A program made the translations under genes and the position numbers. DNA of 64,000 nt from Parcubacteria group bacterium Gr01-1014_8 (GTDB taxonomy: Bacteria > Patescibacteriota > Minisyncoccia > Phycocordibacterales > UBA2100): positions 64,001 through 128,000 of the forward strand of contig VMGC01000005.1 of NCBI GenBank assembly GCA_007376385.1. The letters run 5' to 3'. Shown here piece after piece: positions 41,050 to 45,452 of this stretch. Numbering within the stretch: position 1 is the stretch's first letter; each line of letters begins with the position of its first letter. The notes beneath the pieces were generated by a model that was not told the origin of the DNA, did not search any database, and saw only the letters and a program-made list of their open reading frames with translations.

Positions 41050-42861
41050 TTGTGGGATGATGCGCTGATGGATTTTGGTCGCAAGTCAATAGGGGACATG
41101 CTAAACGGGATGGCTCGGTACCGAGTCCCAAAATACCAGCGCTCCTTTACCTGGGGTACAAACCAAGTCTCAGATTTTTGGAGAGACCTTTGTGAAGCAG
41201 ATGAGAGAGAAGGATTCTTTCTCGGGACCATGATATTGCATAAGGATAGAGAGGGGGTAGAGGTGGAAAATCTCAAGAATATTGTTGATGGACAACAGAG
41301 AATGACCGCCGCAAGTTTATTATTGCTCGCATGCAGGAATCACTCGTCAAGAAGGAACCGAGACAGGGCTGCTGCACTTGATCAAACTCTGATGTTTCGT
41401 GATATCGCTACTGGAAGAGCGGAAACGCTCAGACTTGAGGTCGCTCCAGACATTCTAGATGCTTTTCGTCACATGGTGACTGCTAGGCAGTGGGATGAAC
41501 AAACTTTTCCAGACGAAGTAGATGGCCGAGTCGCCAGACGAATAAAGTCTATTTATAAGTATTTCAAGCAGCAGGTAGACGAACTATCAGATGCAGAGCT
41601 CTCGTCCTTACTTAATAAATTGTTGAATTCATACTTTCTTGTGATAGAAATTGAAGATATCACACAGGCTTTTGAGCTTTTTGAACGAACAAATGCGCGA
41701 GGAACTCCGCTGAATGCAGGAGAGTTGCTCAAGAACAGACTGTTTGCAGAGGCGCAGGAGAAAGAAATTGTAGAAGGCGAATGGGAGGAGATTGTTTCTA
41801 ACTCTAATGGGATGCTACTGCGAATGTTGAAGTATTTTGCAGCTCTTAAGCACGGGCAAGAAACGGGTCGGACGGTTTTGTATCGACATCTGCGTGGTCA
41901 AGTTGAATCGGACACACCGAGCCAGTTCATCCACGATTTGAGCGCTTTCTCTTCATATTTTGGAAAGTTCTTGGACAACAAACTTCAAGCCGCACCATTT
42001 ATTGATCGAAATTCTGATAAGTCATTCGAATTTCTCTTCATTGATGAGATTGCTTTTAAAAAGTTTGGTCGCAGCATGAGTGCGATATCTCTTTTTGGTG
42101 TCTACATTGTCCTTCCCGTTGTTTTCGCTGGCCTAAAAGGGCTATCGAAATTGAAAGACAAAAGCGGATTTAGACCCGCGTTGAAAGATTTTCTAAATCT
42201 TCTAGGTACGATGGAGTGTTTCCATTTTATCAATAATCAGATATGTACACGTCCCTCGAATCGTGCCGAGTCACTATATGCAAGTAAAACAAATGTGTTG
42301 GCGACAGCGGAGACATGCGCACAGTTCAGAGAGGTAATAAAGCAGATATCAAAAGGACTCAAGGAGATAAAGGTCGCTAATAAGGAAGAGTTCCTACTTA
42401 ATTTTACTGGACTTTCATATACGAGTCCTGCAAGCGATAAGCCTCTCTTTGCATACGTCTTTGATAGATTTGAATCCTCTCCATTCGCGTCAGCAGCACC
42501 TGTAACCATATTTGATCCGTCAGCTAATTACAGCCTGAACCGCGTATTCGAAGTTGAACACATTACCCCTCGAGCAATGTGGGGCAATTTATATCCGGAA
42601 GATGATTTGGTCAACAATATCGGTAATTTACTCATCCTAACGCAGGAGACTAATAGGCTTGTAGATACCAAACCATTGCCGGATAAGATTCGAATAATGA
42701 AGGAACGAGGCTACGACAATTTAAGTACCGTTCAACAATTTTCTAAAAAGTTCGAGGATAAGGAACTCAAGTGGTTACGTCCGACAGACATAACAGAGCG
42801 ATCTGTCGCAATGGCAGCTCAAGGCTACAGTGATATTTGGGATCCATGGCCGAATGATTGA
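41050..42861 (+). CDS. DUF262/DUF1524 (GmrSD-like) modification-dependent type IV restriction endonuclease
   Basis: N-terminal DUF262 motifs (..RYRVPKYQRSFTW.., IVDGQQRMTA). C-terminal DUF1524 His-Me finger (EVEHITPRAMW....NIGNLLILTQETN). Confidence 0.75.
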   Translation: MWDDALMDFGRKSIGDMLNGMARYRVPKYQRSFTWGTNQVSDFWRDLCEADEREGFFLGTMILHKDREGVEVENLKNIVDGQQRMTAASLLLLACRNHSSRRNRDRAAALDQTLMFRDIATGRAETLRLEVAPDILDAFRHMVTARQWDEQTFPDEVDGRVARRIKSIYKYFKQQVDELSDAELSSLLNKLLNSYFLVIEIEDITQAFELFERTNARGTPLNAGELLKNRLFAEAQEKEIVEGEWEEIVSNSNGMLLRMLKYFAALKHGQETGRTVLYRHLRGQVESDTPSQFIHDLSAFSSYFGKFLDNKLQAAPFIDRNSDKSFEFLFIDEIAFKKFGRSMSAISLFGVYIVLPVVFAGLKGLSKLKDKSGFRPALKDFLNLLGTMECFHFINNQICTRPSNRAESLYASKTNVLATAETCAQFREVIKQISKGLKEIKVANKEEFLLNFTGLSYTSPASDKPLFAYVFDRFESSPFASAAPVTIFDPSANYSLNRVFEVEHITPRAMWGNLYPEDDLVNNIGNLLILTQETNRLVDTKPLPDKIRIMKERGYDNLSTVQQFSKKFEDKELKWLRPTDITERSVAMAAQGYSDIWDPWPND

Positions 42862-43321
42862 TGCAGCATTAATCAAACAGAAGACAAGGTACTTACGGGA
42901 CGGCCGGGCCCCGATTCCGAAAAGTGAAAAAATCTCTCGCACGATGAGTGCGATAAGAGCAAAGAACACGAAGCCCGAGTTACTTGTTCGCAAGGTTTTC
43001 CGAAAAGTAGGAATACGCGGATATCGATTGCATTGGAATAAAGTAGCCGGACGACCGGATATTGTGTTCCCTAAGAAAAAAGTCGCTGTGTTTGTTCACG
43101 GCTGTTACTGGCACGGATGTCCACATTGCAAACTTACACTCCCGAAAACGCATCGAGCATTTTGGCGTGCAAAGTTCAAGAGAAACAAGGAAAGAGACGC
43201 TCATAAGACAAAAGACCTGCGGAAATTAGGATGGCGTGTACTTACCGTGTGGGAGCACCAAATAAAGAAAGATGCGGATCAAATCGCTGCACGCGTCGTG
43301 AAGGCTCTTCGTGACGCTTGA
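42854..43321 (+). CDS. vsr: Very-short-patch-repair endonuclease
   Basis: ..SRTMSAIRAKNTKPE..GRPDIVFPKKKVAVFVHGCYWHGC..WEHQIKKD.., the Vsr catalytic core. Start codon uncertain (42854 or 42944). Confidence 0.85.
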   Translation: MIDAALIKQKTRYLRDGRAPIPKSEKISRTMSAIRAKNTKPELLVRKVFRKVGIRGYRLHWNKVAGRPDIVFPKKKVAVFVHGCYWHGCPHCKLTLPKTHRAFWRAKFKRNKERDAHKTKDLRKLGWRVLTVWEHQIKKDADQIAARVVKALRDA

Positions 43322-44648
43322 TGCTCTGCAAAAGTGCACGGCCTATTTCTTCAATGATTCCGACGACAAGTGCGTTACCCATGAAGAACGCTCGTTTTAC
43401 GTCGGAAATGTCGTCATATGCGGTATGGCGAGCAGGGAATTGGCATAATAACTCTAACTCTGTTGGGGTAAGTCGGCGGTATTTTCCGGACTTTGTTTTT
43501 ACAACATGCTTGAATCGCGAGGGTGCGGGCCCTCCCTCTCCTGTAATTATCGTGCGGGAAGGTTTATCCAAAGCATCCGGAAAAGTCATTGGACCCTCTG
43601 CGTAGTGATAAGTGAATCCATCTGTCCCATGGCGCTCTTCCTTTTTAGCACCCTTGAGATATTTCCACTCTTTTAGTGAGCCGTTGATAAAATATTCTTC
43701 GGCGACTTTGTGTTCCGGAAGTAGAATATCACCGAGAGTAATGAAAGGGCCACCGTATTTTGGAGTTACGCGAGCGGTTGTGATCCGACCGTCACTCATG
43801 ACCCCAGCATTCGCAAAATCTATATCGTCCGGGAACAATTGTTCAAAGTCTCTCGTTATTCTGACGGGATCATCAGCGACATCGTGTCTCGCGAATCTTG
43901 AAATTTCATCTTCGACTGCGAGTCGTTGCGCGAAAACTCCTTCTTTTGTCAGCCAATTGATCGCGTCAGTCGAACGTAGCGCATTTGCAATACCGGTTCC
44001 ATTCTTGAACGCGAGAATAAAGATCCGGCGCCTGCGCTGTGGTTTTCCGTAATCAGCTGCATTGATAACGCGCCATTCGACGACATATCCGAGGTTTGCG
44101 AGCGAAGCGAGCATGATCGCAAAATCACGACCGCGGGCAGATGCTGGGGACTTTAATAATCGGTCAACGTTCTCTAGGAACACATAGGGAGCAGAGTCCT
44201 TGTGTCCTTTTTCTTGAAGAATGCGATAGATCTGCCACCAGAGAACGCCTTTCTTTCCCTGGAGTCCCGCAGCTTGGCTCAACGTTCGTGCAACCGAATA
44301 ATCCTGACAAGGAAATCCTCCGACAAGAACATGATGGTCCGGGATGTCACCTGTTGCGACGGTCGCGATATCTTGATTACTGTGTCCTTTGCTGCCAAAA
44401 CGTGCCCGGTACACCTCGGATGCGTGCTGGCGTTTCGTTGATGGCTCCCACTGATTACTCCAGATGGTCTCGAATTTCAGACCTGCTCTCGCCGCTTCCT
44501 TTTTTGATGCTTGGTCGAGTCCGAGACGAAATCCTCCCACCCCTGCGAACAATTCAATGACCTTAAGTGGCACCGCTTGTCGATCGTCTTTTTTGAGCGT
44601 ATGTTTGGCTAGTTTCCCCATAGCTAAATCGTACCAAGGAATATCCAT
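43242..44648 (-). CDS. dcm: DNA (cytosine-5)-methyltransferase
   Basis: Motif I ELFAGVGGFRLG, motif IV GGFPCQDYS, motif VI FLENV, plus a target-recognition domain. Overlaps vsr at its 3' end (convergent). Confidence 0.9.
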   Translation of the reverse strand: MDIPWYDLAMGKLAKHTLKKDDRQAVPLKVIELFAGVGGFRLGLDQASKKEAARAGLKFETIWSNQWEPSTKRQHASEVYRARFGSKGHSNQDIATVATGDIPDHHVLVGGFPCQDYSVARTLSQAAGLQGKKGVLWWQIYRILQEKGHKDSAPYVFLENVDRLLKSPASARGRDFAIMLASLANLGYVVEWRVINAADYGKPQRRRRIFILAFKNGTGIANALRSTDAINWLTKEGVFAQRLAVEDEISRFARHDVADDPVRITRDFEQLFPDDIDFANAGVMSDGRITTARVTPKYGGPFITLGDILLPEHKVAEEYFINGSLKEWKYLKGAKKEERHGTDGFTYHYAEGPMTFPDALDKPSRTIITGEGGPAPSRFKHVVKTKSGKYRRLTPTELELLCQFPARHTAYDDISDVKRAFFMGNALVVGIIEEIGRALLQSIKRHEEPSRRVQRFDPHLSLFGAPTR

Positions 44649-44681
44649 TTGATCAAGATCGAGTTATCCACTGTCTGCCAT

Positions 44682-45452
44682 ATGCATAAAAAGTTCATCG
44701 AACTACTGAATATACCCGATCCAAAGATCCTGGAACCCAAAAAAGTGGGACCTAAACGCCTACAGATGGTCAACTTTGCACGAACGCTTTCTAGAGGAAC
44801 CTTAGAAAGCCCGCATGAACACAAGATTTGGAAAGTCAGGGCTTATTGGATTGGATTCCAAAAACCAGGAATTGAGACTGCTGCGGACGCGGAAACCAAT
44901 TACAAAGATGGTACTGTCGCTCCTAATCCTGACGACATGAAGCCCACTATATGGAAGTCGAATAAGATCATTAAAGCACCAGCGTCATTTGAAGAGATTT
45001 TTCACGTTTTTGAAAGACTTTTACGAAATGATGAAGAAAATGTTTTGGAGCTGCTTGCCGCCATCCTTTATAGAGATGCTTATTTGTTGGATTACGAGAT
45101 CAGTGATCAGCCGAACGCTGTCCCCGAATATAGGTTATCCCAAGATATACTTCAGGAACTTGAGAAACCGCTCTTCAGTGTTACTGGATTACCAGCTGAG
45201 GTTTATTTGAAATATTTGCAAATGATCGCATGGAATGAGGACGTCAAATATAACGCCTTAGGTTATAATATTGCGAAAGAGAAGACGGGCAGGCAGGGAA
45301 ATCTATTAACCTACACCCACTTGATTGCTGTGCTGTTAGGTAGGGCGCGATTAGCAAATTTTTGCTACGCATTTGCTCGAAGTGGAGGAGTAGCACCTAT
45401 AACGGGAATTGCTACCTGGGCAGCATTTCCTTGGCTTAGAAATGAGAAGTAA
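44682..45452 (+). CDS. Hypothetical protein divergent from dcm (candidate cognate restriction endonuclease or defence component)
   Basis: ~257 aa from the first ATG; the annotated ORF starts at a TTG at 44649. No recognisable motif. It lies in the low-GC island only ~33 nt from the dcm start. Confidence 0.45.
   Translation: MHKKFIELLNIPDPKILEPKKVGPKRLQMVNFARTLSRGTLESPHEHKIWKVRAYWIGFQKPGIETAADAETNYKDGTVAPNPDDMKPTIWKSNKIIKAPASFEEIFHVFERLLRNDEENVLELLAAILYRDAYLLDYEISDQPNAVPEYRLSQDILQELEKPLFSVTGLPAEVYLKYLQMIAWNEDVKYNALGYNIAKEKTGRQGNLLTYTHLIAVLLGRARLANFCYAFARSGGVAPITGIATWAAFPWLRNEK

What the first reader, a model, noticed from the sequence alone, without database searches (positions are those of the whole stretch)
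44649..45452. Unknown protein divergent from dcm: candidate cognate restriction endonuclease
This ORF has no recognisable motif. It is positioned exactly where a cognate restriction enzyme would sit in a divergently organised type II R-M system: promoters back-to-back, ~33 nt between start codons.

Its size (~257 aa) is in the range of small CCWGG-type enzymes such as PspGI. Vsr is next door, consistent with a Dcm-like CCWGG specificity.

If it is not a restriction enzyme, it is an uncharacterised partner of a Dcm/Vsr pair.
Basis: inference. Interest (0 to 1): 0.6.

Follow-up and report, generated by a model that had tools for sequence, protein, structure and literature searches.

The report
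Unclassified restriction enzyme, probably GATC-specific
This unannotated 256-residue gene is most likely the DNA-cutting half of a restriction-modification system that targets GATC, built on a protein family and predicted fold that match no known nuclease.

Summary
The ORF is real: ATG 44682 to stop 45452, 256 aa, back-to-back with a C5 DNA methyltransferase, with Vsr on the methyltransferase's far side. It matches nothing in Pfam, NCBIfam, PADLOC or PDB sequences. A confident AlphaFold model (pLDDT 94.9) matches no solved or viral structure.

It belongs to a family of about 490 clusters at 50% identity. In 29 of 30 informative loci a member lies next to a methyltransferase of the same family, in divergent, convergent or tandem order. 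Seven loci have a C-protein (HTH) gene at the head of the operon.

The specificity is probably GATC (Sau3AI-type, 5-methylcytosine), not CCWGG:
- The methyltransferase's closest annotated relatives sit beside Sau3AI-family enzymes.
- GATC is strongly avoided in host contigs (0-2 observed against 24-44 expected in several).
- A conserved operator with two GATC sites lies upstream of the ORF in 13 of 14 divergent loci.
- Some members carry the ORF domain fused to the non-catalytic C-terminal effector domain of Sau3AI, in place of its MutH-like catalytic domain.

Verdict: the restriction-enzyme idea is supported. The PspGI-like, CCWGG and PD-(D/E)xK details are not. Catalysis is inferred, not shown. 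The window's copy carries an unusual K64I change.

The parts
44682..45452 (+). Candidate restriction endonuclease, 256 aa, of an unclassified family. Conserved residues: K61, G63, (K64; Ile in this copy), E65, N82, D85, R131, D137, N185, E186, D187, K189, Y190, G203, R204.
   Evidence: ORF and start codon. No family or PDB sequence hit. AlphaFold pLDDT 94.9 with no fold match. Linkage to the methyltransferase. Conservation.
44651..44671 (.). Conserved intergenic operator GATCAAGATCGAGTTATCCAC: two GATC sites 6 bp apart, followed by a TTATCCAC element. On the methyltransferase-sense strand TTGATC could be a -35 hexamer, followed 17 nt later by TGGTACGAT, then 6 nt and ATG (44621).
   Evidence: Found once per locus, 17-26 nt upstream of the homologue's ATG, in 11 divergent loci, with an inverted-repeat variant in 2 more. 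Unique in the window, 0 expected by chance. Its reading frame relative to the ATG is not conserved, so it is non-coding. The promoter reading is inference: the consensus scan found nothing at its threshold.
43242..44648 (-). C5 DNA methyltransferase of the M.Sau3AI type, probable GAT(5mC) specificity. The likely true start is Met10 at 44621.
   Evidence: Pfam DNA_methylase 3e-56, TIGR00675. PADLOC MTase_II PDLC03329, 525 bits. 44-47% identity over about 90% of its length to plasmid methyltransferases adjacent to annotated Sau3AI-family enzymes. 50-55% identity to the partner methyltransferases of 9 compared ORF-family loci, 44% for L013, 76% for L019.
42830..43321 (+). Vsr very-short-patch repair endonuclease, convergent with the methyltransferase and overlapping its 3' end. 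It repairs the T:G mismatches left by 5mC deamination.
   Evidence: Pfam Vsr 6.5e-23, TIGR00632 5.6e-35. Vsr accompanies the module in 14 of 32 loci.

Best explanation
The ORF encodes the restriction endonuclease of a type II R-M system whose methyltransferase is of the M.Sau3AI type, recognising GATC and methylating the cytosine at C5.

Proposed mechanism:
- The enzyme recognises unmethylated GATC in incoming DNA and cleaves it. C5 methylation by the neighbouring methyltransferase protects host GATC sites. Vsr repairs the T:G mismatches that 5mC deamination creates.
- The nuclease module is a new sequence family with no detectable fold relative. Its predicted structure is an N-terminal beta-sheet subdomain plus a C-terminal helical bundle.
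- The nearly invariant charged residues (K61, K64, E65, D85, R131, D137, E186, D187, K189, R204) probably form a metal-dependent active site and the DNA contacts.
- In C-protein-less divergent loci such as this one, expression is probably timed by a conserved operator. Its two GATC sites overlap the methyltransferase's putative -35 element, so their methylation state would feed back on transcription.

Shown here: gene linkage, family conservation, the methyltransferase's relatives, GATC avoidance, the operator, and the domain fusion. Inferred: nuclease activity, the catalytic residues, GATC as the cleavage target, and the regulatory logic.
For: 1. Linkage. Of 32 non-redundant loci with a family member, 30 are informative, and 29 have a C5 methyltransferase next to it. 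Those compared directly are 44-76% identical to the window's over their full length, and the 19 genome-scan loci match the family HMM at 600-745 bits. Gene order is divergent, convergent or tandem and the flanks are unrelated.

2. C-protein control. Seven loci have an HTH_3 gene immediately upstream or overlapping: L005, L015, L023, L024 and L044 directly, L013 and L035 at the head of the operon. This is the classic control for a toxic R gene.

3. In about 22 loci the ORF-family gene is the only non-methyltransferase, non-Vsr gene of the module.

4. Domain fusion. Members of 458-476 aa carry the ORF domain fused to a domain that matches Sau3AI residues 254-432 (E=2.6e-22), its non-catalytic effector domain. 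The match to the Sau3AI catalytic N-domain is only 2 bits. Domain roles are as described in bioRxiv 10.64898/2026.04.21.719898. That fused gene again sits beside Vsr and the methyltransferase. The ORF domain therefore occupies the place of the catalytic domain.

5. GATC specificity.
- The methyltransferase's closest annotated relatives are adjacent to 'Sau3AI family type II restriction endonuclease' genes.
- In L013 a Sau3AI-N-like gene shares the operon.
- GATC observed against expected is 0/38, 0/35, 0/29, 1/37, 0/40, 1/24 and 2/44 in host contigs. Pooled over 10 fetched loci (9 with an ORF homologue, plus the X-only L021) it is 160/412, z=-12.4. In the window it is 199/294.
- The operator with two GATC sites is conserved across loci whose proteins are only about 37% identical.

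6. The protein is confidently folded (pLDDT 94.9), basic (pI 8.4), and has invariant acidic and basic residues.

7. The island has lower GC than its flanks (0.454 against 0.52-0.53). It is relatively GATC-rich, consistent with recent acquisition of a mobile R-M module.
Against: - Six loci also carry a second unknown gene, 'X', with a G-x-D...DEK motif resembling PD-(D/E)XK. X occurs alone with the same methyltransferase family in Epilithonimonas caeni. Two loci also have a MutH-like nuclease, so in those loci the ORF need not be the cutter.
- The window's copy has Ile at a position that is Lys in 97% of members (K64). Its CPR subgroup has Tyr where 91% have His (H138). This copy could be attenuated.
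- GATC avoidance is modest in CPR contigs and absent in L045 (70/77) and L021 (47/50). It could also reflect other GATC systems.
- One locus (L036) has no methyltransferase within 6 kb.
- One member (P0180) is fused to a LexA-type S24 peptidase domain, an architecture typical of DNA-binding repressors.
Confidence: 0.74

Rival explanations
1. The ORF is a non-catalytic accessory of the R-M system. It would be a GATC-binding, effector or regulatory subunit that controls the methyltransferase, or that recruits or activates a separate nuclease (X, a MutH-like protein, or Vsr).
For: - No nuclease fold was detected.
- The ORF is co-transcribed with X, which has a PD-(D/E)XK-like motif, in 6 loci, and with a MutH-like nuclease in 2.
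- X alone suffices beside the same methyltransferase family in L021.
- One member is fused to an S24 peptidase, like LexA/CI repressors.
- A conserved operator lies just upstream and something must bind it.
Against: - About 22 loci have no other candidate nuclease. At least 10 of these also lack Vsr (L004, L005, L015, L023, L024, L025, L030, L031, L039, L040).
- C-proteins precede it as they do R genes.
- In the Sau3AI-C fusions the partner domain lacks the Glu of MutH's catalytic ELK motif in every fused member read by eye, so those proteins would have no nuclease at all.
- A 250-aa domain with more than 10 near-invariant charged residues is more than a regulator usually needs.
Confidence: 0.13
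2. The ORF acts on GATC but not as a phosphodiesterase. It would be, for example, a PabI-like DNA glycosylase 'restriction' enzyme, or a repair or strand-discrimination factor that reads the GAT(5mC) methylation state together with Vsr.
For: - The C-terminal half is all-helical with an invariant Asp and Lys (D137, K189), loosely like helical glycosylases.
- Vsr accompanies it in 14 loci.
- The Sau3AI-C/MutH-like fusion partner belongs to a family also used for methyl-directed strand discrimination.
- No known nuclease motif is present.
Against: - No glycosylase fold match.
- Mobile contexts (integrases, a viral contig, low-GC islands), C-protein control and extreme GATC avoidance all point to restriction rather than repair.
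- Half of the loci lack Vsr.
Confidence: 0.09
3. One reading: a small PspGI/EcoRII-like PD-(D/E)xK enzyme that cuts CCWGG, partnered with a Dcm-type methyltransferase.
For: Only the Dcm-like annotation class (C5 methyltransferase plus Vsr) and the protein's size.
Against: - NCBIfam's Dcm subfamily model scores 66 bits against a 710-bit cutoff.
- The nearest annotated methyltransferases partner Sau3AI-family enzymes.
- CCWGG is not notably depleted (72 observed, 88 expected), while GATC is.
- No Pfam EcoRII or PspGI-type hit and no PD-(D/E)xK fold match.
Confidence: 0.02

Closest known systems
Sau3AI R-M system (type IIE enzyme Sau3AI plus M.Sau3AI; GATC, 5-methylcytosine)
   Same: - The partner methyltransferase family is the one found beside annotated Sau3AI-family enzymes.
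- GATC is the implicated site.
- Long members of the ORF family carry the Sau3AI C-terminal effector domain (E=2.6e-22).
- The overall logic is the same: a GATC cutter blocked by GAT(5mC).
   Different: - The ORF domain has no sequence or predicted-fold similarity to the MutH-like PD-(D/E)XK catalytic domain.
- The window's protein is a stand-alone 256-aa domain with no effector domain.
- It is found almost only in uncultivated lineages: Patescibacteria, Muribaculaceae, Prevotellaceae, Melainabacteria and Margulisbacteria.
C-protein-controlled type II R-M operons (for example PvuII, BamHI, Esp1396I; from general knowledge)
   Same: In 7 related loci a small HTH_3 gene immediately precedes or overlaps the ORF-family gene, with the methyltransferase transcribed separately.
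   Different: The window's locus has no C gene. It has instead a conserved operator containing two GATC sites.
CfrBI-type regulation, where methylation of the system's own site in the M/R intergenic promoter controls expression (from general knowledge, not checked in a paper here)
   Same: The putative cognate sites (two GATC) sit in the short divergent intergenic region. They overlap a candidate -35 element (TTGATC) of the methyltransferase gene and are conserved in 13 of 14 divergent loci.
   Different: The promoter assignment is inferred and falls below the consensus scan's threshold. No expression data exist.
R.PabI, the 'half-pipe' restriction glycosylase (from general knowledge)
   Same: It is a precedent for an R-M 'R' component with a fold and chemistry outside the four classical nuclease superfamilies.
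   Different: No structural similarity was detected. PabI targets GTAC and pairs with an N6-adenine methyltransferase.
   Same: A C5 methyltransferase with an adjacent Vsr.
   Different: The methyltransferase fails the Dcm subfamily cutoff (66 against 710 bits). There is no EcoRII or PspGI homology and no CCWGG avoidance.

Membership tests
Type II restriction endonuclease (as the R component of an R-M system) | Gene adjacent to, and co-inherited with, a cognate DNA methyltransferase | tested here: met
   29 of 30 informative non-redundant loci, in several gene orders. The compared partner methyltransferases are 44-76% identical to the window's.
Type II restriction endonuclease (as the R component of an R-M system) | Sequence-specific double-strand cleavage that is blocked by the cognate methylation | not testable with these tools
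   This needs purified protein and methylated versus unmethylated GATC substrates.
Type II restriction endonuclease (as the R component of an R-M system) | Toxic without the methyltransferase, with regulated expression (C-protein or equivalent) | tested here: inconclusive
   A C-protein gene lies upstream in 7 loci and a conserved GATC operator in 13 of 14 divergent loci. Toxicity itself was not testable.
Type II restriction endonuclease (as the R component of an R-M system) | Avoidance of the recognition site in host DNA | tested here: met
   GATC is the most significantly depleted 4-mer palindrome in the window (z about -5.6; CTAG has the lower ratio). Pooled over 10 other fetched loci it is 160 observed against 412 expected, z=-12.4. 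Several contigs have 0-2 sites against 24-44 expected. The signal is not universal: L045 and L021 show none.
PD-(D/E)XK nuclease superfamily | An alpha-beta-beta-beta-alpha-beta core with D...(D/E)xK on strands 2 and 3 | tested here: not met
MutH/Sau3AI family (Pfam PF02976) | Sequence match to the MutH profile, with the catalytic D...ELK | tested here: not met
   No Pfam or PADLOC hit for the ORF or for any of 32 members. By contrast the L013 neighbour hits PF02976 at 4.6e-21 and PADLOC REase_II at 5.7e-55.
EcoRII/PspGI CCWGG enzymes | Homology to the EcoRII-C/PspGI catalytic domain, a Dcm-type partner, and CCWGG as the site | tested here: not met
   No Pfam hit. The Dcm subfamily model scores 66 bits against a 710-bit cutoff. 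CCWGG is 72 observed against 88 expected.
HNH, GIY-YIG and PLD nucleases | Profile match and the signature residues (His/Asn/Cys; GIY...YIG...R...E; HxK) | tested here: not met
   No profile hit. No invariant His or Cys: H138 is at 91% and is Tyr in the window's subgroup. The D137-H138 hairpin followed by a helix loosely recalls a beta-beta-alpha-Me finger, but this is unverified.
M.Sau3AI-type C5 methyltransferase (for the partner gene) | Full-length similarity, including the target-recognition region, to methyltransferases paired with Sau3AI-family enzymes | tested here: met
   44-47% identity over 88-95% of the query to plasmid methyltransferases. For the two records read in full, the adjacent gene is a 466-aa or 491-aa annotated Sau3AI-family enzyme. 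Methylation of GATC itself was not testable.

The most novel reading that the evidence does not exclude
The ORF domain is a previously unrecognised catalytic fold for restriction enzymes. It would be a sixth structural class beside PD-(D/E)XK, HNH, GIY-YIG, PLD and half-pipe. It cuts GATC, or otherwise damages it (for example by base excision), and has replaced the MutH-like catalytic domain in a Sau3AI-type architecture.
Probability: 0.45. Interest if true: 0.78.

Novelty: new variant of a known kind. Interest (0 to 1): 0.62.

Why it matters
Restriction enzymes are a classic case of convergent evolution onto a handful of nuclease folds. This would add a family of about 490 sequence clusters that pairs with a Sau3AI-type methyltransferase. 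In some members it takes the place of the Sau3AI catalytic domain, yet it matches no solved structure. That would be a new catalytic scaffold for sequence-specific DNA cleavage.

It would also show modular swapping of catalytic domains onto a conserved GATC-sensing effector domain. It would add a defence gene to lineages (candidate phyla radiation, gut Bacteroidales) whose R-M repertoires are mostly uncharacterised. A new GATC cutter with different methylation sensitivity or cut position could be a useful reagent.

The conserved two-GATC operator offers a simple, testable case of methylation-timed R-M expression.

Tried and rejected
- Family scans. Pfam, NCBIfam and PADLOC scans of the ORF found nothing, as did a Pfam scan of all 32 aligned members.
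- PDB sequence searches. A single-sequence search and a profile search gave only noise: a GH5 endoglucanase at E=0.17 and 0.046.
- tblastn of the ORF against the plasmid and phage collections found no match.
- Searching methyltransferase homologues for informative names returned 8000 hits, all generically named.
- I tested whether the extra gene X is a stand-alone Sau3AI-C-like or MutH-like domain. HMM and hhalign comparisons were negative, and X has no Pfam, PADLOC or PDB sequence hit.
- The consensus sigma-70 scan of the intergenic region found no site at its threshold, so the promoter model is my own reading of the conserved spacing.
- I considered reading the conserved upstream motif as coding sequence, via the TTG at 44649. 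I rejected this because its frame relative to the ATG differs between loci.
- A literature search for M.Sau3AI, Vsr and GATC found no description of this family.
- There is no tRNA flanking the island.
- CCWGG, GGCC and other palindromes were checked as alternative sites. None is as significantly depleted as GATC; only CTAG, which is depleted in many genomes, has a lower ratio.

Full report
**1. What is in the sequence**

An ORF runs from 44649 (TTG) to 45452 on the + strand. Homologues align from the ATG at 44682 (MHKKF...), which gives a 256-aa protein with pI 8.4.

The neighbouring genes are:
- A 468-aa C5 cytosine methyltransferase, divergent at 43242-44648 on the minus strand (Pfam DNA_methylase 3e-56, TIGR00675).
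- Vsr at 42830-43321, convergent with the methyltransferase and overlapping its 3' end.
- A GmrSD-type enzyme at 41050-42861, upstream of Vsr.

There are 33 nt between the start codons if the longest methyltransferase ORF is used. The exact protein is a 'hypothetical protein' of Parcubacteria group bacterium Gr01-1014_8.

**2. The ORF has no known relative by sequence or fold**

- Pfam, NCBIfam and PADLOC (which includes type II REase models) gave no hit. PDB sequence searches, single sequence and profile, gave only noise.
- tblastn against the plasmid and phage collections found nothing.
- An AlphaFold2 model built on a 32-sequence alignment is very confident (mean pLDDT 94.9, pTM 0.92). It shows N-terminal helices, a small beta-sheet (strands 45-52, 55-61, 87-92, 95-97) and a helical C-terminal half.
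- So no PD-(D/E)xK, HNH, GIY-YIG, PLD or half-pipe relationship was detected. The AlphaFold database libraries were unavailable.

**3. It is a real, sizeable family, tied to one methyltransferase family**

A word-indexed search found 34 homologues. An exhaustive profile search found 490 cluster representatives at E<=1e-3, of which 143 are at E<=1e-30.

I collected gene contexts by exact look-up, a scan of GTDB species representatives, and a scan of IMG/VR. I annotated them with my own HMMs.

- There are 32 non-redundant loci. Two are cut by the contig end.
- Of the remaining 30, 29 have a C5 methyltransferase next to the ORF homologue. Those compared directly by BLAST are 44-76% identical to the window's over their full length. 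The 19 genome-scan loci match the family HMM at 600-745 bits.
- The exception is L036, which has no methyltransferase within 6 kb.
- Gene order varies between divergent, convergent and tandem, and the flanking genes are unrelated. The pair therefore moves as a module.
- The closest methyltransferase (76% identity, L019) has a divergent 254-aa ORF homologue at only 37% identity, plus an overlapping Vsr. This is the window's layout, with the fast R-gene divergence typical of R-M systems.
- Seven loci have a small HTH_3 (C-protein-like) gene at the head of the operon, in some cases overlapping the ORF homologue's start.
- Hosts are almost all uncultivated: Patescibacteria, Muribaculaceae, Prevotellaceae, Melainabacteria and Margulisbacteria.

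**4. The specificity is very probably GATC, not CCWGG**

(a) Methyltransferase relatives. The best plasmid homologues of the window's methyltransferase (44-47% identity over about 90% of its length, so including the target-recognition region) lie next to MutH/Sau3AI-type genes. In the two records read in full, that neighbour is a full-length gene annotated 'Sau3AI family type II restriction endonuclease'. NCBIfam's Dcm subfamily model scores only 66 bits against a 710-bit cutoff.

(b) Shared operon. In L013 a 234-aa MutH-family protein shares the C-controlled operon with the ORF homologue. It hits PADLOC REase_II at 5.7e-55, over the N-terminal half of a 527-position profile.

(c) Site avoidance.
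- In the window GATC is the most significantly depleted 4-mer palindrome: 199 observed against 294 expected. Only CTAG, which is depleted in many genomes, has a lower ratio.
- CCWGG is unremarkable at 72 against 88.
- In other host contigs GATC is nearly absent: 1/37, 0/38, 0/29, 0/35, 0/40, 1/24, 2/44.
- Pooled over 10 other fetched loci (9 with an ORF homologue, plus the X-only L021) it is 160/412, z=-12.4.

(d) Conserved operator. GATCAAGATCGA[C/G]TTATCC[A/C]C has two GATC sites 6 bp apart. It lies 17-26 nt upstream of the ORF homologue's ATG in 11 divergent loci. An inverted-repeat variant, GATCAATCTTGATC, occurs in two more. That is 13 of 14 divergent loci, even though the proteins are only about 37% identical. 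In the window it is at 44651-44671 and is unique there. Its frame relative to the ATG varies between loci, so it is a DNA element and not coding sequence.

**5. A domain fusion points to the catalytic role**

Nine family members of 458-476 aa, plus one N-terminally truncated 368-aa member, consist of the ORF domain (residues 1 to about 250) followed by a domain of about 210 aa.

- A profile of that second domain matches Sau3AI residues 254-432 at E=2.6e-22. It matches the Sau3AI N-terminal domain at only 2 bits, and MutH at 8e-8.
- In Sau3AI the N-terminal MutH-like domain is the nuclease. The C-terminal MutH-like domain is a non-catalytic effector that binds a GATC site and relieves autoinhibition (bioRxiv 10.64898/2026.04.21.719898).
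- Read by eye against my recollection of the MutH sequence, the fused domains lack the Glu of MutH's ELK catalytic triplet. This is inference.
- The fused gene again lies next to Vsr and a methyltransferase 50% identical to the window's.
- The ORF domain therefore sits exactly where the Sau3AI catalytic domain would be. This is the strongest available argument that it is the cutting module, and it is independent support for GATC.

**6. Likely mechanism (inferred)**

Over 162 members the following are conserved:
- 100%: G63, D85, G203.
- At least 96%: K64, E65, R131, D137, E186, D187, K189.
- 91-95%: K61, N82, H138, N185, Y190, R204.

This mix of acidic and basic residues, spread over the sheet subdomain and the helical bundle, fits a metal-dependent active site plus DNA contacts at a domain interface. 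D137-H138 sits at a short hairpin followed by a helix and loosely recalls a beta-beta-alpha-Me finger, but I could not test that.

Regulation. On the methyltransferase-sense strand the operator reads TTGATC, then 17 nt, then TGnTA[C/G]GAT, then about 6 nt, then ATG, in many loci. This suggests a methyltransferase promoter whose -35 overlaps a GATC site. It also suggests that the window's methyltransferase starts at Met10 (44621). Methylation of these sites could then time expression of the two genes. The consensus promoter scan does not reach its threshold here, so this remains a hypothesis.

**7. Complications**

- Gene X. Six loci also carry a second unknown gene, X, of 210-224 aa. It has invariant G-x-D and DEK motifs, which resemble PD-(D/E)XK. 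X is co-transcribed with the ORF homologue. In Epilithonimonas caeni X occurs alone with the same methyltransferase family. X may be an independent isospecific enzyme or a partner subunit. It is absent from the window.
- This copy's substitutions. The window's protein has Ile at the 97%-conserved K64, and its CPR subgroup has Tyr at H138. This copy may be attenuated.
- Uneven avoidance. GATC avoidance is weak in CPR contigs and absent in L045 and L021.
- An odd fusion. One member, P0180, is fused to an S24 peptidase domain, which hints at a DNA-binding role or at a gene-calling artefact.

**8. Comparison with what is known, and verdict**

Functionally this is a Sau3AI-isospecific type II R-M module with Vsr. 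The R gene is not a member of the MutH/Sau3AI, EcoRII/PspGI, PD-(D/E)XK, HNH, GIY-YIG or PLD families by any test I could run.

I rate it a new variant of a known kind: an R-M system with an unclassified, possibly new-fold nuclease domain. The CCWGG, PspGI and PD-(D/E)xK specifics are not. Confidence that the ORF family is the restriction component is about 0.74, and catalysis remains to be shown experimentally.

Noticed in passing
window 41050-42861 (+): A 603-aa GmrSD-type (DUF262/DUF1524) protein lies immediately upstream of Vsr and overlaps it (Pfam GmrSD_N 4.5e-34, GmrSD_C 1.3e-8; PADLOC HEC-06 3.6e-52). It is a likely type IV, modification-dependent nuclease. Together with the R-M genes it forms a low-GC island (0.454 against 0.52-0.53 in the flanks), that is, a small defence island.
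   Followed up: partly
L007 5764-6417, L017 5764-6438, L009 2868-3500, L013 4413-5048(-), L035 5312-5959, L044 5552-6190, L021 5236-5901(-): A second uncharacterised family, 'X', of 210-224 aa has invariant G-x-D...DEK, TF, GW..D and E-x-P-x-N motifs, which resemble PD-(D/E)XK. It has no Pfam, PADLOC or PDB sequence hit. It is co-transcribed with the ORF homologue in six loci and occurs alone beside the same methyltransferase family in Epilithonimonas caeni. It is probably another unclassified GATC restriction enzyme, or a subunit.
   Followed up: partly
window 44663-44671 and the same position in 10 other loci: The conserved tail of the operator, TTATCC[A/C]CA, is identical or nearly identical to the DnaA-box consensus TTATCCACA. 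In the window it reads TTATCCACT. This may be coincidence or a co-opted binding site.
   Followed up: no
window 44621-44648: The longest methyltransferase ORF probably over-extends. Related loci share the spacing TTGATC, 17 nt, TGnTA[C/G]GAT, about 6 nt, ATG. That places the real start at Met10 (44621) and implies a leaderless or very short-leader mRNA.
   Followed up: partly
window 44682-45452, residue 64 (codon ATT at 44871-44873): The window's protein has Ile where 97% of 160 family members, including its five closest CPR relatives, have Lys, next to the conserved E65. This could be an attenuating mutation of the R gene.
   Followed up: partly
P0180 (393 aa, JGI metagenome contig of 2.5 kb): The ORF domain is fused to a LexA-type Peptidase_S24 domain (5.4e-22), and the source names the protein 'LexA'. 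It is a single case, either a real repressor-like architecture or two genes merged by a frameshift or gene call.
   Followed up: no
L019 5840-7339(-) and L036 4264-5814(+): A GHKL/HATPase_c_3 protein of about 500 aa lies beside the module in two Patescibacteria loci. In L036 it directly precedes an ORF homologue that has no methyltransferase within 6 kb. It may be a different defence partnership.
   Followed up: no
L007 and L017 (whole loci): These integrase-bearing elements avoid several palindromes at once. L017 has GATC 0 observed against 35 expected, CATG 0/32, AGCT 3/30 and CTAG 2/22. L007 has GATC 0/38, CCGG 1/26 and CTAG 0/16. This looks like multi-site restriction avoidance by mobile elements.
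   Followed up: no
window 44682-45452 versus the whole window: GATC density is higher inside the R-M genes (7.8 per kb in the ORF, 5.7 per kb in the methyltransferase) than in the window overall (3.1 per kb). This fits a recently acquired island that has not yet adapted to the host's GATC avoidance.
   Followed up: partly
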